Shown piece after piece: positions 1-64,000 of a stretch of DNA of 64,000 nucleotides. The notes beneath the pieces are model-generated. The model ran no database searches and was not told where the DNA came from. It saw nothing but the letters and a program-made list of their open reading frames with translations. How positions within the stretch are numbered: the stretch's first letter is position 1; the number at the start of each line of letters is the position of its first letter. Origin of the DNA: Candidatus Levybacteria bacterium RIFCSPHIGHO2_01_FULL_38_26 (GTDB lineage Bacteria > Patescibacteriota > Microgenomatia > Levybacterales > UBA12049). Location: NCBI GenBank assembly GCA_001782075.1, contig MFNO01000013.1:48608-112607 (forward strand), given 5' to 3'. Made by a program: the position numbers and the translations under genes.

Positions 1-2
1 TT

Positions 3-866
3 GCGCGATTTATTTACAGTCCATGGAATTACGGGATAAGCGGGCAATTTAGTCTTCAGGTTGGAGTAGTACATTGGATCAGTATCATTTTAGCAATACC
101 TGTTATATATCTTTTGTACAAGAAAAAAAACAATCTTTGGGTTTTGGGAACCGCAGCTTTTCTCCTCTTTTGGCTGAGTATATTTATAATGACGCCATAT
201 TCCCGCATTATATGGGATAATATTTCGCTCCTTCAAAAATTCCAATTTCCGTGGCGATTTATGTCGGTTGATGTTTTTGCCACAGCCGTTTTGGGTGGGT
301 TATTTTTTTACATTTTACCCAATAAATTTAAATCTTTTGTCGTCCTTTGCTTTGTAGTTCTGATTTTGTTTTTCAATAAAGATTACTGGCACGCGAGTGG
401 CTATCTGCAAAAGCCTGATAGTTTTTTCACAGGTATATATAATGGTACTACTGATACTGGAGAAAGCAGTCCCATCTGGTCTATCCGTTTTATGGAGAAG
501 AGTCCAAAAAAGAATATAGAGGTTGTCAGCGGAGAAGCTAATATTAGGCAGATAAGCAGGAGATCGACAATTCATGTTTATGAAATTAACGCTGCATCTA
601 AATCAAGAGTTTTAGAAAATACTCTGTATTTTCCTGGATGGAGTGTTTATGTTGATGGAAAAGAGGTTGATCCTGAATTTCAGGATCCTGCACACAGGGG
701 GCTTATGACATTTTATGTTGATGAGGGTACACACGCTGTTAGTATTAAGTTTGGAGAAACAAAATTAAGATTATTTTCAAACATAATAAGCGGGATAAGC
801 TTGGCTATTCTATTCTTTTATATTATACTTAATAGTAAAGTATGGCGACAATTTCGGTTGTTTTAG
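3..866 (+). CDS. Polytopic membrane protein, 5'-truncated by the window edge; C-terminal part of a paralog of the 6039..7673 protein
   Basis: The frame is open from nt 3 with no upstream stop, and the first Met is at 114. It shares the motifs FQFPWRF and YFPGWSV(Y/F)V with 6039..7673 and ends in a C-terminal TM helix with a basic tail. Confidence 0.6.
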   Translation, partial: ARFIYSPWNYGISGQFSLQVGVVHWISIILAIPVIYLLYKKKNNLWVLGTAAFLLFWLSIFIMTPYSRIIWDNISLLQKFQFPWRFMSVDVFATAVLGGLFFYILPNKFKSFVVLCFVVLILFFNKDYWHASGYLQKPDSFFTGIYNGTTDTGESSPIWSIRFMEKSPKKNIEVVSGEANIRQISRRSTIHVYEINAASKSRVLENTLYFPGWSVYVDGKEVDPEFQDPAHRGLMTFYVDEGTHAVSIKFGETKLRLFSNIISGISLAILFFYIILNSKVWRQFRLF

Positions 867-1612
867 CAACCTATAATGAGGAAAAAAACCTTCCGGCATG
901 TCTGGATTCAGTTGAAGATTTAGCGGATGAAATAGTTGTTGTGGACGGATGGTCTAAAGATAGAACTGTTCAGATTGCAAAGAAATACGGAGCGAAAGTA
1001 AAAATTACTAACAATCCGCTTATTTTCCATATCAACAAACAAAAAGCAATTGATATGGCAGCGAAAAATTGGGTTTTACAGCTTGACGCTGACGAACACG
1101 TTACTCCAGAGCTGCGTGAGGAAATTAAAGAAGTTATAAAAAAGAAAAAATCAAAAATCAGTGGTTATTGGATTCCGCGGAAAAATTGGTTTTTGGGTAA
1201 ATTCTTGATGAAAGGCGGACAATACCCTGATTATACTCTACGACTTTACAAAAGAGGCAAGGGAAAACTTCCTCAAAAAACTGTTCACGAGCAGGCGGTG
1301 GTGGACGGTGAGGTTGAGTACTTAAAAAATCCCTTACTTCATTATCCATACAAGAATTTTGGTATGTATCTTGAAAAATGGAATAGATATACTGATCTAA
1401 TTGCGACTCAGATCAAAGACCAGTTGAGGGAGAAAAATTTAGCAACTAAAATTTTTTATATGATGGACTTTATTTTTATAAAACCTATTTTTTGGTTTGC
1501 CAACACCTATATAAGACATAAAGGATTTTATGATTTGTGGCCTGGTTTCGTCTTTTCTTTTTTCTCAAGCCTTCGATTTCCAGTGGGATATTTGAAATAT
1601 TTAGGAAAGTGA
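842..1612 (+). CDS. Family-2 glycosyltransferase (GT2)
   Basis: N-terminus VVLATYNEEKNLPACLDSV...VVVDGWSKDRT, then DADE (DxD-like); a typical GT-A fold start. Confidence 0.8.
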   Translation: MATISVVLATYNEEKNLPACLDSVEDLADEIVVVDGWSKDRTVQIAKKYGAKVKITNNPLIFHINKQKAIDMAAKNWVLQLDADEHVTPELREEIKEVIKKKKSKISGYWIPRKNWFLGKFLMKGGQYPDYTLRLYKRGKGKLPQKTVHEQAVVDGEVEYLKNPLLHYPYKNFGMYLEKWNRYTDLIATQIKDQLREKNLATKIFYMMDFIFIKPIFWFANTYIRHKGFYDLWPGFVFSFFSSLRFPVGYLKYLGK

Positions 1613-1640
1613 ATTAAAAAATCAACAGCTCTACCACAGA

Positions 1641-1678: not shown

Positions 1679-2461
1679 ATGGGTGGAAATATTGAAAATG
1701 AATTAAGCGGAAGAATGGGTGGCGAATATCGAGTTCCTCGTAATTTAGAGAGGTTAATGGAGGGGCATTTCGCATTTCAAGATTTACTTAAAGACCCATC
1801 TACTTTAGAATCGCTAGGTTATACACAAAGGCAGATTGAATTTGTTCAATCTGCAGTTAATTTAATCCAGCCTCCAAATCCAAATCTAACAAATAGGGGA
1901 TATGAGAATTGGTTTAATTTCGAGCCAAGAGAATATTTAGGTATTCATGAGCAATCAATCATCGAGGCTTCTGAGCCTGGTCTTTATACACTAAGATGTT
2001 TTAAAAGTGTGGGACCATTCAGCCTTAGTTTTAACAGAGAGGAAGAACTACAGTACGTTAGAGAGCATGGTCTTGAAGATGTAGATGAAGTTTTTGGTAG
2101 AGGCAGCAAAGTATTCAATTATCATGTTTTAAATATAATGCTTATCAATCCAAAAATTATATCTCTTGATAGTAACAACGACCTGGCAAAACTTACGCGT
2201 AAAGGAAGACCAGAGTCTAATAGTTTGAAAAAGAAAAGTTTTAACCCGGTTACAAAATTATTATATAAGCATAATTTTGCAGATTATTACAGTTCAAAAT
2301 GGACAGATGAAGCAAAAAATGAATTAGAGATTAGACTAGAAAATGTAGAAAAAGGAATATCTGTTGAAAAATGGAGAAAACTACCTATGTTGCCATCTTC
2401 GGATTTTCATCAAGATCCTCTTCTGCCGATTGGACAAGTAGCTAATGTTGATGTACTATGA
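1679..2461 (+). CDS. Hypothetical protein, no recognisable domain
   Basis: 260-aa ORF that is not membrane-like, with an ATGA overlap to the next gene. Confidence 0.5.
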   Translation: MGGNIENELSGRMGGEYRVPRNLERLMEGHFAFQDLLKDPSTLESLGYTQRQIEFVQSAVNLIQPPNPNLTNRGYENWFNFEPREYLGIHEQSIIEASEPGLYTLRCFKSVGPFSLSFNREEELQYVREHGLEDVDEVFGRGSKVFNYHVLNIMLINPKIISLDSNNDLAKLTRKGRPESNSLKKKSFNPVTKLLYKHNFADYYSSKWTDEAKNELEIRLENVEKGISVEKWRKLPMLPSSDFHQDPLLPIGQVANVDVL

Positions 2462-3369
2462 ATAAAGAAGCGCCCCAGCTGAGCCTCGAAGTAGATAGTT
2501 CTGTAGGAAACTTATTCGATAAAAGTACTCTTTATACTGTTGCATGGCCTATGGGAAAGCTTGTAGATACGATTAAAGAGGCTGGATATAGAGGAATTGA
2601 ATGGCATCCTCTGAGAATAGTAGCAGGTGCGCAAATGAACGCGGGTCTTATTTGTAAGGATGATAAAGATGCAATTGTTTCCCTTCATCAAAGTTATCGC
2701 AGTGAAAAGAATTTGTTAGAAGCATGGCGTCACCAAAATCGCGCTCTTGCACTGATGTCTTATGTTTTACTTCCTGAACGCGTTAGCTCATTGCAAAAGC
2801 TTGAAAAGTTGCAGGGTGTTTTAGGGAAAGCACTACCTATTGTTCTTTACCCTTCTAATCTTGGGGAAGAATCTGGAACAGATAGGAGTTTTGCAGAAAA
2901 AATATTTCAACCCACGTCTGAGATAATGTACAGATGGGACGTAAGAGGAGTGGATGATTTAATTGAAGAAAGTCGCAAACGTGGATATGATGGACTCTGT
3001 CTTGACTTATTTCTTATGAGAGAGAAAGACATAGAAGGATTTGGTTTGAATCCATGGCAAGAAATACTGCCTCAATTATTACCCTACACAAAAGAACTTC
3101 AAGTGTCCGCAGGACGTGGTGATATTCCACAAGAGCATATTGATACATACCAGGAGCTTGAAAATTTATTAACGGATAAAGGTGATTCAGAACTTACAGA
3201 GATGCTTGAAGTTATAAGAAGTTCAGGTTGGAAAGGTCGTGTAGTTACAGAAATTCCTGGCGCTTCATTACATGAAATAAGGAAGAAAAATGGTAATTTT
3301 ACCTCTATGAAAGATCTTATCGAAGATCACAAGAAAATTGTAGGTAATATTCAAGATATACTAGGTTAA
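2458..3369 (+). CDS. Hypothetical protein, with weak resemblance to the xylose-isomerase-like TIM-barrel (sugar-phosphate isomerase/epimerase) fold
   Basis: 303-aa soluble protein. Segments AGYRGIEWHP and GLCLDLFLM loosely recall TIM-barrel sugar isomerases, so the assignment is tentative. Confidence 0.4.
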   Translation: MNKEAPQLSLEVDSSVGNLFDKSTLYTVAWPMGKLVDTIKEAGYRGIEWHPLRIVAGAQMNAGLICKDDKDAIVSLHQSYRSEKNLLEAWRHQNRALALMSYVLLPERVSSLQKLEKLQGVLGKALPIVLYPSNLGEESGTDRSFAEKIFQPTSEIMYRWDVRGVDDLIEESRKRGYDGLCLDLFLMREKDIEGFGLNPWQEILPQLLPYTKELQVSAGRGDIPQEHIDTYQELENLLTDKGDSELTEMLEVIRSSGWKGRVVTEIPGASLHEIRKKNGNFTSMKDLIEDHKKIVGNIQDILG

Positions 3370-3444: not shown

Positions 3445-4437
3445 ATGAGAGTACTTGTTACTGGTGGGGCTGGGTATATTGGAAGCTTTATGACAAAGCG
3501 GCTTCTTGATTATGGCCACGAGGTCGTGGTTTTTGATAGTTTGGAGAGGGGCTACAGAAATGCGGTTGACACCAGGGCAAAATTTATTCAGGGAGATATT
3601 AAAAATCCTGATTCTCTAGAGATTTTATTTGGAAGCCAAGCAATTGATGCTGTGATGCATTTTGCCGGGTATATTTCAGTTGAGGAATCGACAAAAAATC
3701 CCCAAATGTACCATCTAAATAATACAATTGGTACAGAAAATCTTCTAAAAGCAATGATAGAATTTGGACAAGTTGATAAATTCATTTTTTCCTCAACAGC
3801 TGCAGTATACGGAAATCCAATAAAAACTCCGATTCCGGAAGACCACCCCAAAAATCCAACCAGTCCATACGGAAAAAGCAAACTAGAAGTTGAGGAAATG
3901 CTTCAGATTTTTGGGGAAGAGCAAAGATTAAATTTTGTAAGCCTTCGCTATTTCAACGCTGCGGGAGCAGCTGTTGACGCCTCCATGGGTGAGGCGCATG
4001 AACCAGAGACCCATATCATCCCGTTGGGAATTCTAGCTGCCTTAAAAGGCACAGAATTTAGTTTGTACGGAACAGATTACAATACGCCTGATGGAACTTG
4101 TGTTCGGGATTACATTCATGTGATTGATTTAGTCGAGGCGCATATTTTAGCGCTTAATTATTTAGATAGAGAAAAAGGGGGATTTTTTTACAACGTAGGA
4201 GTAGGAAGAGGATATTCAAATAAGGAAGTAATTGATATGATAAAAAAAGTCTCAGGGAAAGATTTAAAAGTAAAAGTAGAGAATCGAAGAGCTGGAGATC
4301 CGCAGGTCCTAATAGCTGACGCAACTAGGATTCAACGAGAATTGGGTTTTAACCCAAATGTTTCTGATCTTGAAACTATTGTAAAAACTGCATTCTTGTG
4401 GCATCAGAAAAGTTCGAAATACGAGATTGTACTCTAA
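3445..4437 (+). CDS. galE: UDP-glucose 4-epimerase
   Basis: MRVLVTGGAGYIGS Rossmann start, YGKSK catalytic Y-x3-K, and an overall GalE-like 330 aa. Confidence 0.85.
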   Translation: MRVLVTGGAGYIGSFMTKRLLDYGHEVVVFDSLERGYRNAVDTRAKFIQGDIKNPDSLEILFGSQAIDAVMHFAGYISVEESTKNPQMYHLNNTIGTENLLKAMIEFGQVDKFIFSSTAAVYGNPIKTPIPEDHPKNPTSPYGKSKLEVEEMLQIFGEEQRLNFVSLRYFNAAGAAVDASMGEAHEPETHIIPLGILAALKGTEFSLYGTDYNTPDGTCVRDYIHVIDLVEAHILALNYLDREKGGFFYNVGVGRGYSNKEVIDMIKKVSGKDLKVKVENRRAGDPQVLIADATRIQRELGFNPNVSDLETIVKTAFLWHQKSSKYEIVL

Positions 4438-4439
4438 AA

Positions 4440-4973
4440 ATGAAAGGTATTAAACTTTTGCCTTTTGCGCTGGGAATTATTTTATTTTTTTTTATCCCTC
4501 AATCTTCGGTCTTTGCTCAATCGAAATACGTCCTTCCGTATCCATCCGTAATGCCAGGAAGCATTTTTTATAAATTTAATCAAGTCAAAGAGCAAATTTT
4601 GAGATATTGGTATTTTGGCGACTTTGGACAATTTCATTATAATCTTAGACAGTCGGATAAATATTTGGTAGAAGCAAAAACGCTTTTTGATTACAAACAA
4701 TATCTTTTGGGAAATATTGCTTTGGAGAAATCGGATGGGTATTTTGAAGATATTTATCCCAATTTTGTCAATGCCAAAAACAATGGCAAAAACACATCGG
4801 AAAAAGAAATCATGTATAAAGAAGCCGCCAAAAAGCATATAGAGGAACTTAAAAAAGTCAGAAATATTGTTTCATCAATTTTCATTTGGACTCCAGAGAA
4901 CGAGAGTCCAACAACTCTAAAGCTTTGGGAAAGCGTGGATAAGTCTTTGAAGATTAGACAAAAAAGATTATGA
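4440..4973 (+). CDS. Secreted or N-terminally anchored hypothetical protein (DUF5667-like motif)
   Basis: Signal-peptide/TM-like start MKGIKLLPFALGIILFFFIP, then the motif YVLPYPSVMPGSIFYKF, which is shared with the 19915..20484 protein. The start was chosen at the Met just after the galE stop; the track ORF begins at 4398. Confidence 0.55.
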   Translation: MKGIKLLPFALGIILFFFIPQSSVFAQSKYVLPYPSVMPGSIFYKFNQVKEQILRYWYFGDFGQFHYNLRQSDKYLVEAKTLFDYKQYLLGNIALEKSDGYFEDIYPNFVNAKNNGKNTSEKEIMYKEAAKKHIEELKKVRNIVSSIFIWTPENESPTTLKLWESVDKSLKIRQKRL

Positions 4974-6046
4974 GATTAGTTTATGTTTTTATCGCAACCT
5001 TGGTATTGTTTTCCGTTTTTACATACGCCTTTGTTGATAAAAATCTTTCTTATTTAAACAACTTGTACACAGGGCTTTATTTTACTAATAGATTTTTGTT
5101 GGTATCAATCTACACATTTTTGATTTCTATTTTGTTTGGGTGTTTTTATTTCCTTATAAATCATCAGAAAAAAATAAATTTGAAGAAAATAATTTTTTTT
5201 ACAATTACCGTTACTATATTTGCTTATCCGGCGGCACTTGCATTTGATATTTTTAATTACATCACAACTGCAAAAGTTTTGTTTTTGTATCAAGAAAATC
5301 CATATACTATTTACCCAATAGAGTTTAAAGGCGATCCTTATCTTGAATTTACAAGAGCGGCTAATAAAACTGCTCTTTATGGACCGTTTTGGATTATCCT
5401 GACAGGTATTCCTTATTTTTTAGGATTAGGTAATTTTATTGTGATATTGTTTTCATTCAAACTTTTTATTGTAGGATTTTTTGCATCGACAGTGTTTTTA
5501 ATAAACAAAATCGATAAAAACGCGACTTTGTTTTTTGCCCTAAATCCGCTGGTAATTATAGAAACTCTTGTATCGTCGCATAATGATATTGTAATGATAT
5601 TTTTTGCTCTCTTGGGCATTTATTTTCTAAAGTCCAGAAAAGTTTTGTCTTTTTTTTCTCTTCTTGCATCAATTATGATAAAATTCGCGACTGTATTTTT
5701 AATCCCTGTTTTTTTATTAAGTTTATTTACAAAGTTTAGGAGTAAATATAGATACTTTGCAATTTCCATGCTTGTTGTTTTTTTCGTCTCACCTCTTAGG
5801 GAAGAATTATATCCTTGGTATGCTATTTGGTTTATAGCTTTTACAGCTTTTCTTTACAAGAACAAATTCCTGCAAAACCTAGTTTTGGTTTTTTCATTTG
5901 GGCTAATGCTTCGATATATCCCCTACATGGCGAGCGGTAATTATTTTGGCCCAACGCCAATAATTAGAAATATATTGATGTTGTCTCCGGTTTTAGTATT
6001 TTTAATTTACTCGTGGTTTAGAAGTTTGAAAAGAAAAAATGCTTAA
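4970..6046 (+). CDS. Integral membrane protein (about 10 TM), possible GT-C-like glycosyltransferase or polymerase
   Basis: Highly hydrophobic 358 aa with an ATGA overlap to the upstream gene. No soluble domain. Confidence 0.55.
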   Translation: MRLVYVFIATLVLFSVFTYAFVDKNLSYLNNLYTGLYFTNRFLLVSIYTFLISILFGCFYFLINHQKKINLKKIIFFTITVTIFAYPAALAFDIFNYITTAKVLFLYQENPYTIYPIEFKGDPYLEFTRAANKTALYGPFWIILTGIPYFLGLGNFIVILFSFKLFIVGFFASTVFLINKIDKNATLFFALNPLVIIETLVSSHNDIVMIFFALLGIYFLKSRKVLSFFSLLASIMIKFATVFLIPVFLLSLFTKFRSKYRYFAISMLVVFFVSPLREELYPWYAIWFIAFTAFLYKNKFLQNLVLVFSFGLMLRYIPYMASGNYFGPTPIIRNILMLSPVLVFLIYSWFRSLKRKNA

Positions 6047-12764: not shown

Positions 12765-12765
12765 T

Positions 12766-58915: not shown

Positions 58916-59950
58916 ATGAGAAGATTGGTGTCGGTGGTGGTGCTAAACTGGAATGGGAAGGATCATCTAAAAACATGTTTGTCCTCCTTGAGCAAAGTAC
59001 CATATAGACCTCTTGAACTAATTGTAGTAGACAATAACTCTTCTGACGGGTCGGTAGAGATGGTTAAAGAAATTTTTCCAAACGTTAAAGTAATACAAAA
59101 CAAGAAAAACCTAGGCTATGCGGGTGGAAATAATATTGGAATTAAAAAAAGTAAAGGTGAGTATATATTTGTTCTCAATAACGACACAGAGGTTGATAAA
59201 GATTTTTTGAATCCACTTGTTGATGACATGGACTCGGATAAAAATATTGTTTGTGTTCAGCCAAAGCTTGTCTATGCAACTGCTCAAGATATTCTAAATG
59301 CTGTTGGGTCTTTTTTCACTTCTTCAGGTTTTTTATACCACTACGGATATAGAAAATCTGCAAAGCTGCCGCAGTATCAAAAGAAACTTTTAATTTATAC
59401 TGCCAAAGGCGCGGCAATGCTCTTTAGAAAAAGCGCGTTGGATAAAGTGGGTCTTTTTGATGAGGATTTTTTTATTTTTTTTGAAGAAACAGATCTTTGT
59501 CACAGACTATGGCTTTCTGGGTATAAAGTAATGTATGAGCCTAAATCAATTGTCTATCATTTTGAGGCGGTTGATACAGGAAGGCAAATGGGTGATTACA
59601 CAAGAAATTATTTGTCGCTTAGAAATAGAATTTGCAGTTATCTAAAAAACTTAGAGATGCCAAATTTTCTTGGGGTGTTGGGCATGCTTTTTATAATTTA
59701 CAGCGGATATTTTATTTATTACAGCTTACGTTTGCGGTTTGATCTTTCTATGACTGTTCCGTCAAGCATAATATGGAATATAATTCAGTTACCAAATACG
59801 CTCAAAAAAAGATATAATATCCAAAGCAAGATCAGAAAACTCAAAGACGCAGACTTATTCAAAACTATAAAAAAAGATCCGCCCCTGCGTTATTATTACT
59901 ATCTGTTTTTCGATAACCTTAAAAATTTTCAAAATGAAAAAGTTATTTAG
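58916..59950 (+). CDS. GT2 glycosyltransferase (rhamnosyltransferase/WbbL-like)
   Basis: VSVVVLNWNGKDHL...LELIVVDNNSSDGS...NLGYAGGNN...VLNNDTEV. Confidence 0.8.
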   Translation: MRRLVSVVVLNWNGKDHLKTCLSSLSKVPYRPLELIVVDNNSSDGSVEMVKEIFPNVKVIQNKKNLGYAGGNNIGIKKSKGEYIFVLNNDTEVDKDFLNPLVDDMDSDKNIVCVQPKLVYATAQDILNAVGSFFTSSGFLYHYGYRKSAKLPQYQKKLLIYTAKGAAMLFRKSALDKVGLFDEDFFIFFEETDLCHRLWLSGYKVMYEPKSIVYHFEAVDTGRQMGDYTRNYLSLRNRICSYLKNLEMPNFLGVLGMLFIIYSGYFIYYSLRLRFDLSMTVPSSIIWNIIQLPNTLKKRYNIQSKIRKLKDADLFKTIKKDPPLRYYYYLFFDNLKNFQNEKVI

Positions 59951-62900
59951 GTATCGTACTTTTTTAGAAATACTGTTTATATTCTTCCTAAGTCTGACTC
60001 CTCTTCTTTGGTTTGAGAGAGGAACAATTATTGTTGGCCACGACAACGTTTTTGCAATCGATCCTGTAACATTTTTGCAAGGCAGGTTATTTACTTGGGT
60101 AGATCATGGATTTGGACAAAGCCAGGATCTAATTATGGGTACAATACCAATCCATCTAATCGACGCTATTCCTTATGTTCTGGGACTTCCTTTTCAGGCG
60201 ACAGAAATGGCGGTATATGTGTTTTGGTTTTTTCTAATCGGAATTTCTGCTTATATACTTGCGCGTCAATTTCGTGAACAATCTTGGGTGTTTCGACTGC
60301 TTGTGGTTATTCTCTATCAGTTTAATTTTTTCTTATTGCAAGGGTGGTGGATTGGCGAGAGAACTAAATTTTCTGCTTATATAGCACTGCCGCTTATATT
60401 TACGTTGTTTCTGAGAGTACACAGAGGAGAGACTAGTGTTTTTAAGTCGGCAGTTTTAGTAAGCCTTATTTTTTTCGTATTTAATGCGGGAGGACTCTAT
60501 GGAATTCCTTTATATGGAGGACTTTTTATTTCACTTTTTGTATTTCTATTGCTTTTTGGTTTTCTGGATTTGGTAGGAAAAAATTTTGCATCTCTGAGGC
60601 GAACTTTACTTCTTACAGTCTTTTGTATAATTGGTTACGCAATTGTAAACAGTTATTTTACTTTTCCTGCGGTTTCGAGGCTAAATCAGGAATACAACCA
60701 AGGCGTTGTTAAAGCAGGCGGGGTCGAAGGACTTTTGGCATGGGCGGATGAAATTAGTGCTAATGCTAGCCTTATTAATTTATTGAGGCTTGAAGGAATC
60801 GCGGAATGGTATGACAATCCTGATCATCCATACGCCAAAGTTTTTCTAAACAACCCTTTCTTTATAGTGTTAAGTTTTATCTGGCCGTTGATAATTATTT
60901 TATCTTTCACCAGAGACTACGGAGGAAAGCGAAAAATTATTCTCCTTTTCTTCATAATATTTTTAGTTGGTATTTTTTTGTCTTCGGGAACACATCGTCC
61001 GTTTGGAGTAGTATATGAAGCTTTTATGAAATATATTCCCGGATTTGCCGCATTTCGAAGCCCTTATTTCAAATTTGCTTCCGCGATTTTTTTTGCAGCC
61101 AGTTTTCTGATCGCTTTTTATATTGACAGTTTTGGGGGAAAAAAGAAGTATGTTTTTTTTGCATTAGCGCTGGCTTTCGTATTTTTATACCATTTCCCCT
61201 ATTTTACAGGCGATATTTTTTCCTGGAGAAAAGGATTTTCAACAAGACTTGCGATACCCTCATATGTAATAGAATTTGGCAAGTGGCTTGAGGAAGAAAA
61301 AAAAGATGACGGAAGAGTTCTTTTTCTTCCACCCAATAGCCCCAATTGGCGATACAGCATATATGACTGGGGATATCTCAGCTTTCAGGCTCTGCCGACT
61401 CTTTTGAGTAATAAATCTACAGTTATCAACAATGATAGGTTAAACGACAATGAGCGAAAGCTAGTAGACGCTCTATATGATTCATTCGCCAATGATGATT
61501 CTGAATCTATAAATAAACTGTCTTCATACTTAGGAGTGAAGTATTTTATTCTTCAGGATGACACAATTGCTCAAGACTCAAGCTCTCCTCTGTCCCTAAA
61601 CGTGCGGGTATATAAAGATATGATAGAGGAAAAACTGCGGCTCAAGCCTATTAAGGATTTTGGGCGTTGGTCGCTTTACGAGCTGGATACACAAGCACTC
61701 CCAACGTTTTATACAGCGAGCGACTTGACAGTTATTTCAGGTCCTGTTAAAAACTTCAGTTATTATTATGATTTTTTGGAAGAAAAAAGAGTTCTTCTGA
61801 AAAACAATGATCTGACGGGTTTGAACCTTTCGCCGCAAAAGTTGCCTGATATTTACTCTCCCTCGTGTCTAAAATGTACAAAAAAAGATAGACCATTTAT
61901 TGTTTTTCCGCAGAGGAGCGTACTTCCGAATTCTCCTTTTTATCCGCTTGTGCTTTTGAGTGAGAACAGGAATCTTCGCTCTCAAGATCCAAGGACTCTG
62001 GTATATGATTATCTTGGATTGTCCATGAAGAGATTGTCTGAGATTAATGAGATGATTGAGAAGGATATAAGTATCAGCGGGGATGTAATTAGCAGATATG
62101 AGGCTACTGTTAGACTTATTCACACAAATTTCAATAAACTGGTTCGACTGGAAGATAAATATAGCGCTGCAGAAGATTTAACTTATTATATTAGATCTCA
62201 ACGCGACCTGGTATATGAAACATTGGCAGATGAGGTCAGCGGTTTACCGGCTGTTATTCTTGATCGAGCGCTTAAGTCTCTTCGTACTTTAGATCAAGGC
62301 ATAAAGCCATATGTGTTCACACGCGATATTACTCAAAACAGGCTGTATAATATTTCGGTTGCTCAGCCGGATGTCTATAGTCTTTACATCAGAACTGCAG
62401 AATTTGGAAGCGTAGTCAGGCCAAATGCTGATCTGTCGGTGGAGATTGACAGTAAACAATCCAGAACGCTTACTATATCTGATGAATCGTTTCAGGGGGA
62501 ATGGTTATCATTTGGAAATTTTACACTCAGTCAGGGTGATCACACTTTCCTTCTTTCTTTTTCAGAGCTTGAAAACAAAGTTTTACCCCCTCAACCCAGC
62601 ACAACTGTTTTCAACGCCGATGGGAGACAACGGTGTTTTACTACAAAGGTTGAGAATTATGACAATAGAAAAAGATACAAGGCTATTGTTCGCTATAGAA
62701 ATGATTTGTTCAACGATATAAACATATATATATGGGAAGACAAGGAAAAAGAACAAAGGCTTCGTTTCGCGTCCAGACTATTCAAGAGTCTTATAGAAGA
62801 AGAATTTACTCATGAAATTGATCCCCAAGGTGATATTAGAGGGATAATTTTAGGATTTTGTTCTACAAATCTCACACAAGAGTTTATACGCGAGCGATTT

Positions 62901-63290
62901 AGTATAAAAGTCAGCGAACTTATAGATCCAGTCGTTTTATTTTTATCTAAAAATGAGAAAGATGTTGACATAAGCAACGTATCATATCAAAGAATAAATC
63001 CTGCAAAGTACTCTGTATCTTTTTCGACTACCAATCCAAATACGGTGCTAGTTTTCAACAGCAGGTTTGATGAAGGTTGGGAATTACAAGGGGGTTTTAA
63101 AAAACATATCTTGGTAAATGGATTTGCGAATGGATGGTTGATCGAGCAGCCTGGTAATTATTCTCTTATCCTTGAATACAAACCGCAAGATTATTATCTT
63201 GTCGGCGGATTTCTGAGCTTATCGGCGGTTTTAGGAGGAGTATCATATATTTTGTGGAATAGTATTAAGCGAAGAAAAAAATATGATTGA
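59934..63290 (+). CDS. Giant (1118 aa) polytopic membrane protein with a large extracytoplasmic domain and a C-terminal TM anchor (AftD/DUF3367-like or YfhO-like GT-C candidate)
   Basis: About 13 TM in the first 450 aa, a hydrophilic domain of about 600 aa, and a final TM helix GGFLSLSAVLGGVSYILW with an RRKKYD tail. Confidence 0.6.
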   Translation: MKKLFRYRTFLEILFIFFLSLTPLLWFERGTIIVGHDNVFAIDPVTFLQGRLFTWVDHGFGQSQDLIMGTIPIHLIDAIPYVLGLPFQATEMAVYVFWFFLIGISAYILARQFREQSWVFRLLVVILYQFNFFLLQGWWIGERTKFSAYIALPLIFTLFLRVHRGETSVFKSAVLVSLIFFVFNAGGLYGIPLYGGLFISLFVFLLLFGFLDLVGKNFASLRRTLLLTVFCIIGYAIVNSYFTFPAVSRLNQEYNQGVVKAGGVEGLLAWADEISANASLINLLRLEGIAEWYDNPDHPYAKVFLNNPFFIVLSFIWPLIIILSFTRDYGGKRKIILLFFIIFLVGIFLSSGTHRPFGVVYEAFMKYIPGFAAFRSPYFKFASAIFFAASFLIAFYIDSFGGKKKYVFFALALAFVFLYHFPYFTGDIFSWRKGFSTRLAIPSYVIEFGKWLEEEKKDDGRVLFLPPNSPNWRYSIYDWGYLSFQALPTLLSNKSTVINNDRLNDNERKLVDALYDSFANDDSESINKLSSYLGVKYFILQDDTIAQDSSSPLSLNVRVYKDMIEEKLRLKPIKDFGRWSLYELDTQALPTFYTASDLTVISGPVKNFSYYYDFLEEKRVLLKNNDLTGLNLSPQKLPDIYSPSCLKCTKKDRPFIVFPQRSVLPNSPFYPLVLLSENRNLRSQDPRTLVYDYLGLSMKRLSEINEMIEKDISISGDVISRYEATVRLIHTNFNKLVRLEDKYSAAEDLTYYIRSQRDLVYETLADEVSGLPAVILDRALKSLRTLDQGIKPYVFTRDITQNRLYNISVAQPDVYSLYIRTAEFGSVVRPNADLSVEIDSKQSRTLTISDESFQGEWLSFGNFTLSQGDHTFLLSFSELENKVLPPQPSTTVFNADGRQRCFTTKVENYDNRKRYKAIVRYRNDLFNDINIYIWEDKEKEQRLRFASRLFKSLIEEEFTHEIDPQGDIRGIILGFCSTNLTQEFIRERFSIKVSELIDPVVLFLSKNEKDVDISNVSYQRINPAKYSVSFSTTNPNTVLVFNSRFDEGWELQGGFKKHILVNGFANGWLIEQPGNYSLILEYKPQDYYLVGGFLSLSAVLGGVSYILWNSIKRRKKYD

Positions 63291-63618
63291 TCATAAAAAG
63301 CTTGTTTTGTTTTTCTCGATATCTGTAGTTCTTCTTTTTCTAAGAGATACGCCTTATCTTAATGTACTTATCATAGAAAAGTTGTGGTTGATATACTTAC
63401 TTCTGCTTTTTTGGATTTTTTCCAACTTCATTCCAAAAAGAACTGGAATTTTTTTCTTTGCCGCGGTCGTTTTGTTTTTAATTGCGTTGATCTTTAGTCT
63501 TCTTAAGATCGAGATAGTAGCGGAGGCAATTGGAATTGTTATTTATGTTCTTTTATGGCTTATTGTGCTGCAAAAAATAGTTTATTTAGTTAGATCTGAG
63601 AAGCATAACAACAGATGA
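63283..63618 (+). CDS. Small membrane protein (3-4 TM), possible GtrA-like accessory
   Basis: 111 aa, all hydrophobic helices, overlapping both neighbours by a few nt. Confidence 0.4.
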   Translation: MIDHKKLVLFFSISVVLLFLRDTPYLNVLIIEKLWLIYLLLLFWIFSNFIPKRTGIFFFAAVVLFLIALIFSLLKIEIVAEAIGIVIYVLLWLIVLQKIVYLVRSEKHNNR

Positions 63619-64000
63619 TTTTTGGATTTATTGTTTTTATTACAATTCTTTTAGTCTACAGCCCATGGTTTTCGTTTTCTGGTACTCTTTCAAGCGGAGA
63701 CTGGCCGTTTCTATATGTTGAGAATATAAAAGAGTTTTCTTTTTTGCCGCAGGCGCAGTTTTTGTGGCTTGCTCCCTATTATCAAATTCCAGCAAAAATA
63801 TTTGTTCAGTATCTTAATCTTCCTTGGGAATTATTCGAGAGGATGTTTTGGTTTTGGCCGTTTATTGGTATTTCTATTGCATCCTCGTATTATCTGACTC
63901 GTTCGTGGATCGGTGTTCTAATTTATACAACAAACACTTACATCTTGATGATTGTAGCCGGGGGGCAGATGGGAATAGCGATGGCGTATGCCATTTCTCC
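63615..64000 (+). CDS. Polytopic membrane protein, 3'-truncated by the window end
   Basis: The ATG at 63615 overlaps the upstream stop (ATGA). The frame is open to the window end (MIFGFIVFITILLVYSPWF...SGDWPFLYV...). Confidence 0.4.
   Translation, partial: MIFGFIVFITILLVYSPWFSFSGTLSSGDWPFLYVENIKEFSFLPQAQFLWLAPYYQIPAKIFVQYLNLPWELFERMFWFWPFIGISIASSYYLTRSWIGVLIYTTNTYILMIVAGGQMGIAMAYAIS

What the first reader, a model, noticed from the sequence alone, without database searches (positions are those of the whole stretch)
1..64000. Locus architecture points to repeated three-component (polyprenyl-P-sugar synthase / flippase / GT-C) extracytoplasmic glycosylation rather than a classical Wzy-type O-antigen or capsule cluster
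Within 64 kb there are at least nine polytopic GT-C-like membrane proteins, six carrying an early-loop DE motif like ArnT/PMT enzymes. There are at least five DPM1-like GT2 genes (10678, 25506, 26240, 32141, plus 842 and 22756) and two Wzx-like flippases. I found no priming phosphoglycosyltransferase (WbaP/WecA-type), Wzy polymerase, Wzz, or ABC/OPX exporter. By analogy with GtrABC, ArnC/ArnT and protein O-mannosylation, this predicts that many different monosaccharides are built on polyprenyl phosphate, flipped, and added one at a time to an extracytoplasmic acceptor such as an S-layer or pilin glycoprotein or a glycolipid. The at least five methyltransferases and two aminotransferases predict heavily methylated and aminated sugars.
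Basis: inference. Interest (0 to 1): 0.6.

Follow-up and report, generated by a model that had tools for sequence, protein, structure and literature searches.

The report
Giant GT-C-rich surface-glycan island in Levybacteria
This 64-kb stretch of a tiny uncultured (CPR, Levybacteria-like) bacterium is almost entirely sugar-building genes, including 13 membrane enzymes that add sugars outside the cell, and is best read as the middle of a roughly 90-kb island for a complex, strain-variable surface glycan that is probably started inside the cell in the ordinary way and finished outside, much as mycobacteria build their cell wall.

Summary
All 13 non-flippase polytopic proteins in the window are GT-C-type. 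They comprise PMT_2/GT39-like, YfhO/PTPS_related, MptA/B-like and AftD-like enzymes plus two unannotated families that I placed in the GT-C fold. Four GT2s, not six, are Dpm1/GtrB/ArnC-like. There are two Wzx-type flippases, and the window holds no PGT, Wzy, Wzz or exporter.

The island runs past both ends of the window, giving at least 19 GT-C genes in 84 kb.

About 130 related loci show two conserved modules flanking a hypervariable sugar-modification stretch:
- a Wzx–Dpm1-like GT2–GT4–GT-C cassette, present in 36 of 47 species-level loci;
- a distal module ending in a Wzy_C::GT-C fusion, ManC and a Bac_transf (PglC/WbaP-type) initiating transferase, present in 20 of 23 loci that reach far enough.

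In this genome the fusion gene starts 7.6 kb past the window. The PGT is predicted about 17 kb past it, but I could not fetch that DNA.

The three-component logic is therefore supported, but "no primer, no Wzy" describes only the window. The best model is a hybrid: a PGT-primed lipid-linked glycan, flipped and then heavily elaborated outside the cell by GT-Cs, as in mycobacterial arabinogalactan. This is a new variant of a known kind.

The parts
1..866 (+). 3' end of a 539-aa PTPS_related/YfhO-type GT-C; the gene starts upstream of the window
   Evidence: The frame is open from base 3. It is 29% identical to 6039-7673. The full gene is L001 8406-10025, which has a PF10131 hit.
842..1612 (+). 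GT2, not Dpm1-like
   Evidence: Pfam Glycos_transf_2. Best PDB hits are GmaR and SunS, which glycosylate proteins or peptides.
1679..3369 (+). Two soluble proteins of unknown function (260 and 303 aa)
   Evidence: No Pfam or NCBIfam hit. Not Ser/Thr-rich.
3445..4437 (+). SDR sugar-nucleotide epimerase/dehydratase; part of the conserved core
   Evidence: Pfam Epimerase, 3e-57. Synteny.
4398..4973 (+). DUF5667 protein with an N-terminal TM or signal segment; part of the conserved core
   Evidence: Pfam PF18915. Conserved position in related loci.
4970..6046 (+). GT-C, MptA/MptB-like (358 aa, about 8 TM)
   Evidence: Precomputed Pfam PF26314 MptA_B_family. The local Pfam copy gave no hit. Part of the conserved core.
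6039..7673 (+). GT-C, PTPS_related/YfhO type; loop-1 motif 'THDGEYH'
   Evidence: Pfam PF10131 at 59.7 bits and YfhO. Conserved core.
7793..8833 (+). GT4 (GT-B Leloir transferase); conserved core
   Evidence: Pfam Glycos_transf_1. Synteny.
8873..9448 (+). RmlC-like dTDP-sugar 3,5-epimerase
   Evidence: Pfam PF00908.
9432..10700 (+). MOP/Wzx-type flippase of the conserved cassette
   Evidence: Pfam Polysacc_synt_3 at 41.4 bits against a cut-off of 23. Adjacent to the Dpm1-like GT2 in 36 of 47 loci.
10678..11460 (+). Dpm1/GacI-type polyprenyl-P-sugar synthase candidate (GT2, no TM helix)
   Evidence: Full-length NCBIfam alignments to PpgS, ArnC, PgfS and AglJ, all below their cut-offs. No TM helix.
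11445..12764 (+). GT-C (PMT_2); loop-1 'FDEYAW'
   Evidence: Pfam PMT_2 at 48 bits. Motif. Anchor of the conserved cassette.
12754..13887 (+). GT4
   Evidence: Pfam. A GT4 gene lies beside the cassette GT-C in the related loci.
13859..15958 (-). GT-C (PMT_2, 699 aa) with a C-terminal extracytoplasmic domain of about 270 aa
   Evidence: Pfam PMT_2 at 29 bits. 44% identical to 18203-19918. C-terminal sequence.
16002..16937 (+). SDR epimerase/dehydratase
   Evidence: Pfam.
16903..18144 (-). GT4
   Evidence: Pfam.
18203..19918 (+). GT-C (PMT_2); loop-1 'NWDEPAH'
   Evidence: Pfam PMT_2 at 59.4 bits. Motif.
19915..20484 (-). Second DUF5667 protein
   Evidence: Pfam PF18915 at 42.9 bits.
20530..22759 (+). 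SDR (20530-21489) and UDP-glucose/GDP-mannose dehydrogenase (21491-22759)
   Evidence: Pfam.
22756..23571 (+). GT2, ordinary Leloir type, not Dpm1-like
   Evidence: Best PDB hits are chondroitin and heparosan synthases. NCBIfam hits are generic.
23575..24831 (-). GT-C (divergent PMT_2); loop-1 'LYDQVDSAW'
   Evidence: Pfam PMT_2 at 19.8 bits, below the cut-off. 46% identical to L001 4791-6083, which has a PMT_2 hit.
24834..25475 (-). SAM methyltransferase
   Evidence: Pfam.
25506..26950 (+). Two tandem Dpm1/ArnC/GtrB-like GT2 genes (25506-26243 and 26240-26950), 38% identical to each other
   Evidence: For 26240, the top PDB hits are DPMS 5mlz, GtrB 5ekp and ArnC. NCBIfam. Paralogy.
27012..30691 (+). 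Branched deoxysugar genes: NDP-hexose 4,6-dehydratase-like SDR (27012), cupin (28004-28393), sugar C-methyltransferase (28402-29646), SDR (29639)
   Evidence: Pfam GDP_Man_Dehyd 1e-75 and Methyltransf_14/13. Cupin ORF.
30670..32136 (+). GT-C of unannotated family A2; loop-1 'IRGDGF'
   Evidence: No Pfam hit in this protein or in any of its 75 homologues. hhalign to A1 gives probability 99.7. The AF2 model has pLDDT 92; Foldseek hits PglB and STT3 at probability 1.0. Only 298 clusters at 50% identity among 1.84 billion.
32141..32872 (+). Dpm1-like GT2 (243 aa) paired with the A2 GT-C
   Evidence: NCBIfam AglJ 1.4e-22 and Dol-P-hexose transferase. The only PDB hit is DPMS 5mlz. The pairing recurs in L137 and L139.
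32865..36538 (.). MT (32865), SDR (33837), DegT aminotransferase (34623-35723, - strand), MT (35795)
   Evidence: Pfam.
36504..38726 (+). GT-C (PMT_2, 740 aa); loop-1 'HPDEST'; C-terminal extracytoplasmic domain of about 330 aa, predicted from composition to be beta-rich
   Evidence: Pfam PMT_2 at 47.4 bits. Weak NCBIfam hits to archaeal STT3 and Agl23. Sequence.
38735..41645 (+). Two SDRs (38735, 39696) and a DegT aminotransferase (40503)
   Evidence: Pfam.
41642..44006 (+). Two GT4 genes (41642, 42798)
   Evidence: Pfam.
44019..45558 (+). Pair of CDP-alcohol phosphotransferase-family membrane proteins; 44785 has an intact catalytic motif and 44019 a degenerate one
   Evidence: Pfam PF01066. 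39% identical to each other. PDB hits are AF2299, IPCT/DIPPS and PI synthase. Motifs read from the sequence.
45602..50753 (+). MeOPN-like CDP-phosphoramidate module: Gln-kinase-like PEP-synthase homologue (45602), gamma-glutamyl-CDP-amidate hydrolase-like GATase (47991), LicC-like cytidylyltransferase (48674), His_Phos_1 phosphatase (49496), MT (49977)
   Evidence: NCBIfam NF004508 at 847.7 bits against a cut-off of 501. NF045546 at 104 bits, below its cut-off of 250. PDB hit LicC 1jyk. Pathway from the literature.
50743..52062 (-). Second MOP/Wzx-type flippase
   Evidence: Pfam Polysacc_synt is weak. 25% identical to 9432-10700 over 405 aa, E 1.7e-20. Conserved position in L088.
52117..56427 (+). 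Two paralogous GT-Cs of family A1 (52117-53811 and 54742-56427; invariant loop-1 'QQDEW') flanking an SDR (53798-54745)
   Evidence: Some homologues carry PMT_2 or are named GT39.
56424..59950 (+). GT2::methyltransferase fusion (56424), SDR (57887), GT2 of rhamnosyl/GlfT1-like type (58916)
   Evidence: Pfam. NCBIfam.
59934..63290 (+). AftD-like GT-C (1118 aa): about 10-TM N-terminal domain, about 650-aa extracytoplasmic domain and a C-terminal TM helix
   Evidence: Homologues carry PF11847 and the NCBI name 'alpha-(1->3)-arabinofuranosyltransferase family protein'. The window protein itself has only weak DUF5667 and Golvesin_C hits.
63283..63618 (+). Conserved small membrane protein (111 aa, 3-4 TM) that follows the AftD-like gene
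   Evidence: ORF. No Pfam or NCBIfam hit. A 107-aa ORF occupies the same position in L088 and L089; its homology to this protein was not tested.
63615..64000 (+). 5' end of a 567-aa short AftD-like GT-C; loop-1 'SSGDW'
   Evidence: The full gene is L005 13682-15385. hhalign of its family (A4) against the AftD-like family (A5) gives probability 100, E 1.7e-40.

Best explanation
The window is the central two-thirds of an island of roughly 90 kb in a CPR (Microgenomates, Levybacteria-like) bacterium. The island makes a complex, strain-variable cell-surface glycan by a hybrid route.

Proposed steps (1, 2 and 4 rest on family assignments shown here; 3 and 5 are inferred):
1. Cytoplasmic enzymes diversify nucleotide sugars into deoxy, amino, C-methyl, O-methyl and uronic forms. 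These are 10 SDRs, an RmlC-like epimerase, a cupin, a sugar C-methyltransferase, two aminotransferases, a UDP-sugar dehydrogenase and the methyltransferases.
2. A small PglC/WbaP-type phosphoglycosyltransferase starts a polyprenyl-PP-linked glycan, which the five GT4 and four ordinary GT2 enzymes extend. The PGT is seen at the distal end of the island in relatives and is predicted about 17 kb past the window in this genome.
3. A Wzx-type flippase moves this primer outward.
4. In parallel, four to five TM-less Dpm1/GacI-type GT2s load single sugars onto polyprenyl phosphate. These are flipped, possibly by the second Wzx-type protein.
5. At the outer face, at least 13 GT-C transferases in the window (at least 19 in 84 kb) add sugars one at a time to the growing glycan. 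This is how Emb, Aft and Mpt enzymes build mycobacterial arabinogalactan and LAM, and how GacL or YfhO decorate Gram-positive wall polymers. A Wzy_C-like::GT-C fusion then polymerises or ligates the product.

A CDP-phosphoramidate (MeOPN-like) module probably adds a phospho-substituent.

Conserved end modules flank a hypervariable middle, which implies serotype-like diversification of the glycan.
For: - Family assignments of all genes.
- GT-C fold or homology for the four un-annotated polytopic families.
- Dpm1/GtrB/ArnC similarity of four GT2s.
- The window is 100% identical to public contigs that continue the island on both sides. The upstream 10 kb adds five more PMT_2-type GT-Cs. The downstream 9.3 kb adds a Dpm1-like GT2, GT4, GT2, an acetyltransferase, an aminotransferase and a 1056-aa protein.
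- The C-terminal half of that 1056-aa protein is an A1-type GT-C (hhalign probability 99.7). Its N-terminal half hits Wzy_C weakly in 12 of 19 homologues.
- Synteny. The core [GT2-SDR-DUF5667-GTC(Mpt)-GTC(YfhO)-GT4-Wzx-Dpm1-GT4-GTC(PMT_2)] occurs in 36 of 47 genome loci and is followed by variable gene content. The distal module [AftD-like, small TM, short AftD-like, Dpm1, GT4, AcT, GT2, WzyC::GTC, PMT_2, GT4, GT2, GT4, GT4, ManC, Bac_transf] is also conserved. Bac_transf scores E about 1e-60. ManC or the PGT, or both, are present in 20 of 23 loci that extend far enough.
- The ratio of 13 GT-Cs to 4 synthases means donors must be shared, which is typical of polymer assembly.
- Hits to domains I read as carbohydrate-binding: F5_F8_type_C in A1 homologues and in neighbouring proteins, and a weak Golvesin_C hit in 59934.
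- Literature: Wzx-type flippases and TM-less GT-A enzymes are accepted variants of multi-component transmembrane glycosylation (PMC8035078). GT-C systems with auxiliary epimerases are described in PMC11127046.
Against: - The PGT was not seen in this genome. It is inferred from synteny in relatives that are at most 73% identical. The closest relative locus (L008) carries insertions and does not reach it.
- The Wzy_C assignment is below the Pfam threshold (best E 1.7e-4).
- No activity, donor, acceptor or glycan structure is known for any of these proteins.
- No LCP-type ligase or lipid-anchor enzyme was identified, so where the product ends up is unknown.
- The island could serve several separate glycoconjugates rather than one.
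- AftD- and MptA/B-like labels come from weak or precomputed hits, and no genes for polyprenyl-P-arabinose synthesis are present.
Confidence: 0.55

Rival explanations
1. The island holds many independent three-component systems (Dpm1-like GT2, flippase, GT-C). Each adds one monosaccharide at a time to an extracytoplasmic protein acceptor such as an S-layer protein or type IV pilin, with no lipid-linked oligosaccharide primer.
For: - Five to six GT-Cs are PMT_2/GT39-like with the DE loop motif of protein O-mannosyltransferases.
- Synthase-GT-C adjacency occurs at 10678/11445, at 30670/32141 and at L005 13682/15435.
- GT2 842-1612 resembles the protein or peptide glycosyltransferases GmaR and SunS.
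- Wzy_C domains also occur in O-oligosaccharyltransferases (my own knowledge).
- Pilin glycosylation has been predicted in another CPR lineage (PMC11623550).
Against: - There are 13 GT-Cs for 4 synthases.
- Nine Leloir GT4/GT2 genes need a lipid- or polymer-bound acceptor in the cytoplasm.
- A Bac_transf PGT closes the syntenic island in relatives.
- AftD- and MptA/B-like families and the discoidin/Golvesin_C domain hits point to glycan acceptors.
- There is no Ser/Thr-rich secreted protein in the window.
Confidence: 0.2
2. The island is a conventional Wzx/Wzy-dependent O-antigen- or capsule-type locus, and the GT-C genes are only accessory post-polymerisation decorators.
For: - A PGT occurs in relatives.
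- Two Wzx-type flippases and a Wzy_C-like domain are present.
- GT4 and GT2 enzymes and nucleotide-sugar genes are abundant.
- A hypervariable centre between conserved ends resembles O-antigen and cps loci.
Against: - At least 19 GT-C genes in 84 kb outnumber the Leloir transferases.
- GT-Cs belong to both conserved modules, not only to the variable part.
- No Wzz/PCP, OPX or ABC exporter lies in the window or within 10 kb on either side.
- The only Wzy_C-like domain is itself fused to a GT-C.
- My own knowledge: CPR bacteria are thought to be monoderm, so O-antigen is not applicable.
Confidence: 0.08
3. The island is a genomic collection of several unrelated envelope pathways that are merely co-located. 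Examples would be teichoic-acid-like or lipoglycan glycosylation, protein glycosylation and a separate exopolysaccharide. There is no single product.
For: - There are two separately conserved modules, each with its own Dpm1-like GT2 and GT-Cs.
- There are two flippases.
- CDP-alcohol phosphotransferases sit next to GT4 genes, an arrangement that could make a glycolipid anchor, as with PgsA1/PimA in mycobacteria (the comparison is from my own knowledge).
Against: - Nearly all genes share one orientation and are tightly packed with overlaps across the whole 84 kb.
- Only one PGT is seen per island in relatives.
- The relative order of the modules is conserved in distant relatives.
Confidence: 0.15

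Closest known systems
Mycobacterial arabinogalactan / LM-LAM assembly (WecA-type primer, cytoplasmic GlfT/WbbL or PimA/B, then extracytoplasmic GT-Cs Emb, AftA-D, MptA/B and PimE using decaprenyl-P-arabinose and polyprenyl-P-mannose from Ppm1)
   Same: - A PGT-primed or lipid-anchored primer is made by Leloir enzymes. A large set of GT-Cs then shares a few polyprenyl-P-sugar donors to build most of the glycan outside the membrane.
- Homologues of AftD (PF11847 in relatives of 59934) and of MptA/B (PF26314 on 4970) are present.
- The synthases are TM-less and Dpm1/PpgS-like.
- CDP-alcohol phosphotransferase genes sit next to GT4 genes, as with pgsA1-pimA.
   Different: - The phylum is different (CPR, low GC, genome of about 1 Mb).
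- There are no UbiA-type DPPR synthase or DprE1/E2 genes, so arabinofuranose is not indicated.
- The flippases are Wzx-type.
- A Wzy_C-like domain is fused to a GT-C.
- All genes sit in one contiguous island with a hypervariable centre.
- Two GT-C families (A1 'QQDEW' and A2 'RGDG') have no annotated counterpart.
Multi-component transmembrane glycosylation of Gram-positive wall polymers, especially GacI/GacJ/GacK/GacL of Streptococcus pyogenes and CsbB/GtcA/YfhO (review PMC8035078)
   Same: - The components are a GT-A polyprenyl-P-sugar synthase, a flippase and a GT-C.
- The GacI type has a TM-less synthase and a Wzx-type flippase, which matches cassette 9432-10678-11445 exactly.
- YfhO/PTPS_related GT-Cs are present.
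- The acceptor is a polymer made by a separate lipid-linked route.
   Different: - Known systems add one side-chain sugar with one GT-C per synthase. Here GT-Cs outnumber synthases 3:1 and sit in the conserved core.
- No GtrA-type flippase and no recognisable GacJ-like partner is present; the 111-aa protein at 63283 has no family hit.
GtrABC / ArnC-ArnT / GT136 pentofuranose three-component systems of Gram-negative bacteria (PMC11127046)
   Same: - The logic is the same: a lipid-P-sugar donor, a flippase and a GT-C.
- The systems may include auxiliary epimerases and carbohydrate-binding modules on the GT-C.
- SDR genes sit next to GT-Cs here (36504/38735 and 52117/53798).
   Different: - Those systems modify a finished O-antigen or lipid A in the periplasm of diderms, with a single GT-C each.
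- No PRPP-dependent polyprenyl-phosphoribose synthase is present here.
Wzx/Wzy-dependent O-antigen and capsule loci
   Same: - A PglC/WbaP-type PGT occurs in relatives.
- Wzx-type flippases, a Wzy_C-like domain, nucleotide-sugar genes and a hypervariable centre between conserved flanks are all present.
   Different: - There is no Wzz/PCP and no OPX.
- The Wzy_C signal is below threshold and the domain is fused to a GT-C.
- GT-Cs dominate the transferase complement.
Campylobacter jejuni O-methyl phosphoramidate (MeOPN) pathway, Cj1415-Cj1422
   Same: - Homologues or analogues of the L-glutamine kinase, the gamma-glutamyl-CDP-amidate hydrolase and the cytidylyltransferase are present.
- A SAM methyltransferase is also present.
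- The module is embedded in a glycan locus.
   Different: - There is no Cj1415-type kinase.
- No recognisable homologue of the Cj1421/1422 transferases was seen, although no reference sequences were available to search with.
- Instead, two CDP-alcohol phosphotransferase-family membrane proteins and a histidine phosphatase are adjacent.

Membership tests
Three-/multi-component transmembrane glycosylation system (GtrABC, CsbB-GtcA-YfhO, GacIJKL) | GT-A (GT2) enzyme that makes a polyprenyl-P-monosaccharide | tested here: met
   By sequence only. 10678, 25506, 26240 and 32141 align over their full length to PpgS, ArnC, AglJ and Dol-P-hexose transferase. Their best PDB hits are DPMS, GtrB and ArnC. 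Activity was not tested.
Three-/multi-component transmembrane glycosylation system (GtrABC, CsbB-GtcA-YfhO, GacIJKL) | Dedicated flippase (GtrA-type or Wzx-type) | tested here: met
   Two MOP/Wzx-type proteins are present and none of GtrA type. The substrate they flip is unknown.
Three-/multi-component transmembrane glycosylation system (GtrABC, CsbB-GtcA-YfhO, GacIJKL) | GT-C fold transferase encoded next to the synthase and flippase, conserved as a unit | tested here: met
   Genes 9432, 10678 and 11445 overlap. The same order, with or without a GT4, occurs in 36 of 47 related loci.
Three-/multi-component transmembrane glycosylation system (GtrABC, CsbB-GtcA-YfhO, GacIJKL) | One synthase feeds one GT-C, which adds one side-chain sugar to a finished polymer | tested here: not met
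   There are 13 GT-Cs to 4 synthases in the window, and GT-Cs sit in both conserved modules.
Wzx/Wzy-dependent O-antigen/capsule locus | Initiating phosphoglycosyltransferase (WbaP/PglC or WecA type) | tested here: inconclusive
   Absent from the window and from 10 kb on either side. Bac_transf (E about 1e-60) closes the syntenic island, with ManC or the PGT or both present in 20 of 23 relatives that reach far enough. The corresponding DNA of this genome could not be fetched.
Wzx/Wzy-dependent O-antigen/capsule locus | Wzy polymerase | tested here: inconclusive
   There is only a sub-threshold Wzy_C signal, seen in 12 of 19 homologues with best E 1.7e-4. It lies in the N-terminal half of a 1056-aa fusion protein that starts 7.6 kb past the window.
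Wzx/Wzy-dependent O-antigen/capsule locus | Chain-length regulator (Wzz/PCP) and OPX or ABC exporter | tested here: not met
   No such Pfam family occurs in the window, its flanks or the annotated relatives.
GT-C fold glycosyltransferases (GT-C_A: STT3/PglB, ArnT, PMT, Alg, Aft) | At least 8-13 TM helices with an acidic motif in the first extracytoplasmic loop | tested here: met
   TM counts. Motifs. QDEW is invariant in 29 A1 sequences.
GT-C fold glycosyltransferases (GT-C_A: STT3/PglB, ArnT, PMT, Alg, Aft) | Fold match to solved GT-C structures | tested here: met
   Met for 52117 (STT3, ArnT, Pmt4, ALG12, AftB) and for 30670 (PglB, STT3, DPY19, Emb), at Foldseek probability 1.0 and TM-score about 0.45-0.5. 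The other proteins were assigned by Pfam or hhalign.
GT-C fold glycosyltransferases (GT-C_A: STT3/PglB, ArnT, PMT, Alg, Aft) | Use of a polyprenyl-phosphate-linked sugar donor | not testable with these tools
   This needs enzymology.
Protein O-mannosyltransferase (GT39/PMT) | PMT/PMT_2 domain with a loop-1 DE | tested here: met
   11445, 18203 and 36504 have both features. 13859 has PMT_2 but carries 'DWD' in place of DE.
Protein O-mannosyltransferase (GT39/PMT) | Ser/Thr-rich secreted protein acceptor | tested here: inconclusive
   None is encoded in the window. The rest of the genome was not available.
Mycobacterial AftD arabinofuranosyltransferase | PF11847 (GT-C AftD) domain | tested here: inconclusive
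   PF11847 is present in many homologues that are 30-53% identical, and the NCBI name follows it. The window protein itself gave no hit in the local Pfam copy.
Mycobacterial AftD arabinofuranosyltransferase | Genes for the decaprenyl-P-arabinofuranose donor (UbiA-type DPPR synthase, DprE1/DprE2) | tested here: not met
   There is no UbiA or FAD-oxidase family in the window or its flanks.
MeOPN (O-methyl phosphoramidate) biosynthesis | L-glutamine kinase (Cj1418 type), gamma-glutamyl-CDP-amidate hydrolase (Cj1417) and cytidylyltransferase (Cj1416) | tested here: inconclusive
   45602 exceeds the cut-off of NF004508 (847.7 against 501 bits), but that model is named 'hypothetical protein'. For 47991 the best family is NF045546, though below its cut-off. 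48674 is LicC-like.
MeOPN (O-methyl phosphoramidate) biosynthesis | Cytidine diphosphoramidate 3'-kinase (Cj1415) and Cj1421/1422 transferases | tested here: not met
   No kinase of that type occurs among the window proteins. I had no reference sequences for Cj1421/1422, so they were not tested directly.

The most novel reading that the evidence does not exclude
Levybacteria and related Microgenomates devote roughly 8% of a genome of about 1 Mb to one island. That island builds their main surface glycopolymer almost entirely outside the membrane, using an assembly line of about 20 GT-C enzymes. The line includes two GT-C families unknown elsewhere, short and long AftD-like enzymes, and a Wzy_C::GT-C fusion that couples ligation or polymerisation to glycosyl transfer. 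The product is further decorated with phosphoramidate through a new kind of transferase from the CDP-alcohol phosphotransferase family. If so, mycobacterial-style extracytoplasmic wall assembly would be an ancient and widespread strategy rather than a speciality of Corynebacteriales. The hypervariable centre of the island would then be the CPR equivalent of serotype loci, shaped by phage or host recognition.
Probability: 0.25. Interest if true: 0.8.

Novelty: new variant of a known kind. Interest (0 to 1): 0.62.

Why it matters
CPR bacteria are ultra-small, mostly uncultured and probably live attached to other cells. Their surface chemistry is essentially unknown, yet it must mediate attachment, phage recognition and immune interactions.

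What this island offers:
- It shows that a lineage with a minimal genome invests about 90 kb in surface glycans.
- It gives a concrete, testable parts list: which GT2s should make lipid-P-sugars, and which GT-C goes with which donor.
- It adds two un-annotated families to the GT-C fold and documents a Wzy_C::GT-C fusion.
- It suggests serotype-like variation in CPR.
- It widens the phylogenetic range of assembly in which lipid-linked sugar donors are used by many GT-Cs, so far best known from the mycobacterial wall, which is a drug target.
- It points to a possible new route for phosphoramidate decoration.

Tried and rejected
- hhalign of the single sequences 59934, 4970 and 23575 against the A1 profile gave no signal. 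These proteins were placed by other routes: homologue Pfam, paralogy, and profile-profile comparison.
- Profile searches of A1, A2 and A3 against PDB sequences found nothing. Only fold comparison worked.
- NCBIfam gave no useful hit for any GT-C.
- I looked for a GtrA-type small flippase or a GacJ-like partner. The only small membrane ORF (63283-63618) has no Pfam or NCBIfam hit.
- I tried to reach this genome's own DNA beyond +10 kb through the metagenome scan. The source contig was not among the returned loci, and only relatives at or below 73% identity came back. The look-up tool is limited to 10 kb around window genes. The PGT is therefore inferred from synteny and was not seen in this genome.
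- I looked for Ser/Thr-rich acceptor candidates among the unannotated window proteins and found none.
- Literature searches for GT-C or glycosylation expansions in CPR, Patescibacteria or Levybacteria found nothing specific.
- There are no tRNA or Rfam elements.
- I considered a phage or plasmid origin and did not pursue it. Composition is uniform, and synteny is conserved in chromosomal-size contigs of up to 1.07 Mb.
- I considered that the CDP-alcohol phosphotransferases could be the priming enzymes. I rejected this as the primary idea because the family transfers phospho-alcohols from CDP donors, not sugar-1-phosphates, and because a true PGT exists in relatives.

Full report
WHAT IS THERE. 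The window is 64 kb at about 35% GC. It has 59 ORFs or gene fragments, 52 of them on the + strand, many with overlapping stop and start codons, and hardly any intergenic space. There are no tRNA or Rfam elements. Pfam and NCBIfam scans of every ORF give 54 of 59 a glycan-related assignment:
- 13 polytopic GT-C-type proteins, two of them cut by the window edges;
- 8 GT2 and 5 GT4 genes;
- 2 MOP/Wzx-type flippases;
- 10 SDR epimerase/dehydratases;
- an RmlC-like epimerase, a cupin, and a sugar C-methyltransferase (Methyltransf_13/14);
- 4 further methyltransferases plus one fused to a GT2;
- 2 DegT aminotransferases and a UDP-sugar dehydrogenase;
- 2 CDP-alcohol phosphotransferase paralogues and a five-gene CDP-phosphoramidate-like module.

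The remaining ORFs are two DUF5667 proteins, two soluble unknowns and one small membrane protein.

THE GT-C CLAIM. Four proteins exceed the PMT_2 gathering score: 11445, 13859(-), 18203 and 36504. One is PTPS_related/YfhO (6039). The window begins inside a second gene of that kind. 23575(-) is a sub-threshold PMT_2 but is 46% identical to a flank paralogue with a PMT_2 hit. 4970 carries a precomputed MptA_B_family hit.

Four proteins had no family at all, so I worked them out separately.
- 52117 and 54742 are paralogues (33% identical). A 29-sequence alignment has an invariant Q-D-E-W in the first loop. The AlphaFold model (pLDDT 91) matches STT3, ArnT, Pmt4, ALG12 and AftB at Foldseek probability 1.0.
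- 30670 belongs to a family in which none of 75 homologues has any Pfam hit. The family has only 298 clusters at 50% identity among 1.84 billion representatives. It is homologous to the first family over its full length (hhalign 99.7%, E 4e-27), with 'RGDG' aligned to 'QDEW'. Its model (pLDDT 92) matches PglB and STT3.
- 59934 (1118 aa) has homologues carrying PF11847 (AftD-type GT-C) and the corresponding NCBI name in Levybacteria.
- The gene that starts at 63615 and runs off the window is a short member of the same family (hhalign 100%, E 2e-40).

All 13 are therefore GT-C-type. A strict DE occurs in the first loop of five of them, and the rest carry D-containing variants.

THE GT2 CLAIM. 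10678, 25506, 26240 and 32141 are 236-260 aa and have no TM helix. They align end to end with polyprenyl-P-sugar synthases (PpgS, ArnC, AglJ, haloarchaeal Dol-P-hexose transferase). Their best solved relatives are Pyrococcus DPMS, GtrB and ArnC. 842 resembles the protein or peptide glycosyltransferases GmaR and SunS. 22756 resembles chondroitin and heparosan synthases. Along with 56424 and 58916, these are ordinary Leloir GT2s. The count of Dpm1-like genes is therefore four, not at least five, in the window. A fifth lies 1.4 kb beyond its end.

OUTSIDE THE WINDOW. The window is 100% identical to public contigs from groundwater-type metagenomes.
- The 10 kb upstream holds five more PMT_2-type GT-Cs (several with 'WDEVA' loops) and a methyltransferase.
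- The 9.3 kb downstream holds the short AftD-like GT-C, a Dpm1-like GT2, an aminotransferase, a methyltransferase, a GT4, a hexapeptide acetyltransferase, a GT2 and the start of a 1056-aa membrane protein.
- That gives at least 19 GT-C genes in 84 kb, and neither end of the island was reached.
- The C-terminal half of the 1056-aa protein is an A1-type GT-C (hhalign 99.7%; loop motif 'GDDFTW'). Its N-terminal half gives weak Wzy_C (O-antigen ligase/polymerase) hits in 12 of 19 homologues.

COMPARATIVE GENOMICS. The homologues are from Candidatus Levybacteria, with some from Gottesman-, Davies-, Shapiro- and Woesebacteria, all CPR/Microgenomates. Some lie on contigs of up to 1.07 Mb.

A scan of species-representative genomes with GT-C 11445 returned 47 loci. 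36 of them show the order [GT2 - SDR - DUF5667 - GT-C(MptA/B-like) - GT-C(YfhO-like) - GT4 - Wzx - Dpm1-like GT2 - GT4 - GT-C(PMT_2)]. Most of the other 11 are cut by contig ends. Downstream of this core, gene content differs from genome to genome.

A metagenome scan with the fusion protein returned 80 loci with a second conserved module: [AftD-like - small TM protein - short AftD-like - Dpm1-like GT2 - GT4 - acetyltransferase - GT2 - Wzy_C::GT-C - PMT_2 GT-C - GT4 - GT2 - GT4 - GT4 - ManC - a protein of 212-224 aa]. That last protein is a Bac_transf (PglC/WbaP-type) phosphoglycosyltransferase, with Pfam E about 1e-60. ManC or the PGT, or both, are found 9-10 kb after the start of the fusion gene in 20 of 23 loci that extend that far. 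They are found nowhere in the window or in the core-module loci. The same module order is seen in two NCBI Levybacteria assemblies.

In this genome the fusion gene starts at window-equivalent coordinate 71604. The PGT is therefore expected at about 81-82 kb, 17-18 kb past the window. I could not fetch that DNA.

MECHANISM. The assignments above are shown. The steps below are inferred.
1. A PGT-primed polyprenyl-PP-glycan is extended by GT4 and GT2 enzymes in the cytoplasm and flipped by a Wzx-type protein.
2. Four to five Dpm1/GacI-type synthases make polyprenyl-P-monosaccharides, which are flipped.
3. Many GT-Cs add these sugars outside the membrane.
4. The Wzy_C-like domain ligates or polymerises the product.

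The 3:1 excess of GT-Cs over synthases implies shared donors, as in polymer-building systems. Two cassettes tie a particular donor to a particular GT-C. One is Wzx-GT2-GT-C at 9432-12764. The other is [cupin, C-methyltransferase, (SDR), A2 GT-C, about-240-aa GT2, methyltransferase] at 28004-33809, which recurs in relatives that are 46% and 38% identical but not in one that is 35% identical. Discoidin-type (F5_F8_type_C) domains on A1 homologues and on neighbouring proteins favour glycan acceptors.

RIVALS. Three alternatives are less likely, for the reasons given in their entries:
- a conventional Wzx/Wzy locus with accessory GT-Cs;
- a mere co-location of several pathways.

None of the three is excluded, because no acceptor or product is known.

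COMPARISON WITH KNOWN SYSTEMS. The logic is closest to mycobacterial arabinogalactan and LM/LAM assembly, and to the GacI/J/K/L-type multi-component glycosylation of Gram-positive wall polymers (PMC8035078). It is more distantly like GtrABC, ArnC/ArnT and the GT136 pentofuranose systems (PMC11127046). It fails the one-synthase, one-GT-C, one-side-chain definition of the classical three-component systems. It lacks Wzz, OPX and ABC components of classical O-antigen or capsule loci. It also lacks the arabinose-donor genes needed for a true AftD function.

NOVELTY AND INTEREST. The principle is known. What is new:
- the scale (at least 19 GT-Cs in one island of a lineage with genomes of about 1 Mb);
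- the conserved-ends, variable-centre architecture in CPR;
- two un-annotated GT-C families;
- the Wzy_C::GT-C fusion;
- the MeOPN-like module next to CDP-alcohol phosphotransferases.

I found no paper describing this. I rate it a new variant of a known kind, with interest 0.62.

LIMITS.
- The PGT is inferred by synteny only.
- The Wzy_C, AftD and MptA/B labels rest on weak or indirect hits.
- TM counts come from a simple hydropathy scan.
- All functions are predictions from sequence and predicted structure.

Noticed in passing
window 45602-50753: A five-gene module resembles the Campylobacter O-methyl phosphoramidate (MeOPN) donor pathway. It comprises a PEP-synthase-like protein (NCBIfam NF004508, 847.7 bits against a cut-off of 501, with the Cj1418-type PPDK_N plus PEP-utilizers architecture), a GATase whose best family is gamma-glutamyl-CDP-amidate hydrolase (below cut-off), a LicC-like cytidylyltransferase, a histidine phosphatase and a SAM methyltransferase. 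No Cj1415-type kinase is present. The module did not appear in any of the roughly 130 related loci, so it belongs to the variable part of the island.
   Followed up: partly
window 44019-45558: Two adjacent paralogous CDP-alcohol phosphotransferase-family membrane proteins, 39% identical. 44785 keeps the DxxDGxxARx8GxxxDxxxD motif ('DLVDGDLARKFKKTSKLGEFMDSFID'). 44019 has lost three of the four Asp residues ('GLIGEDLARNFNLKTKLSEFLDANSH'), which suggests an active/inactive heterodimer. They sit directly upstream of the CDP-phosphoramidate-like module. They could be a new type of phosphoramidate (or other phospho-substituent) transferase, or they could make a phospholipid anchor for the neighbouring GT4s.
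   Followed up: partly
L005 21671-23357 (window-equivalent 71604 onward); homologues L008-L087, alignment A3: A protein of about 1050 aa that fuses an N-terminal Wzy_C-like (O-antigen ligase/polymerase) membrane domain to a C-terminal GT-C of the A1 family. It is conserved in dozens of CPR loci. I did not find this fusion described in the papers I searched.
   Followed up: partly
window 63283-63618; L088 13329-13652; L089 13344-13667: A small membrane protein of 107-111 aa with 3-4 TM helices always follows the AftD-like GT-C. It has no Pfam or NCBIfam hit. It could be a partner subunit, a GacJ-like activator of the TM-less synthase two genes downstream, or a small flippase.
   Followed up: partly
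window 4398-4973, 19915-20484(-), and residues 663-732 of 59934-63290: DUF5667 appears twice as a small signal/TM-anchored protein, and one copy belongs to the conserved core of the island. It also appears weakly inside the extracytoplasmic part of the AftD-like enzyme. Its role is unknown. It might bind the acceptor or control chain length.
   Followed up: no
L090-L136 downstream of the GT-C match; window about 13.9-50 kb: Between the two conserved modules, gene content (GT2, SDR, methyltransferase and aminotransferase genes, and the C-methyl sugar genes) differs in almost every genome. The pattern resembles O-antigen or cps serotype loci and suggests diversifying selection on the surface glycan.
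   Followed up: partly
window 28004-33809; L137 8341-14058; L139 5001-9385: A recurrent cassette links the orphan A2 GT-C to a sugar C-methyltransferase, a Dpm1-like GT2 of about 240 aa and a Methyltransf_23 protein. This predicts that a C-methyl-branched (and O-methylated) deoxysugar is delivered through a polyprenyl-P intermediate.
   Followed up: partly
window 36504-39691 and 52117-54745: Twice, a GT-C is followed immediately by paralogous SDR genes (38735 and 53798, 38% identical). The pairing recalls the auxiliary epimerases that act on lipid-linked sugars in the DprE2 and GT136 systems.
   Followed up: no
window 842-1612: The best solved relatives of this GT2 are GmaR (flagellin O-GlcNAc transferase) and SunS (peptide S-glycosyltransferase). 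Some cytoplasmic protein or peptide glycosylation cannot be excluded.
   Followed up: no
L094-L098, L103, L105 and others (genome contigs records): Many species-representative MAGs that carry this CPR-type island are titled 'uncultured Gammaproteobacteria bacterium' in their records. Given 50-66% identity and full synteny with Levybacteria, these titles are almost certainly mislabels.
   Followed up: no
L008 17368-19923: In the closest relative locus, a response-regulator receiver gene and a PIN-domain gene are inserted into the distal module, so the island can also pick up non-glycan genes.
   Followed up: no
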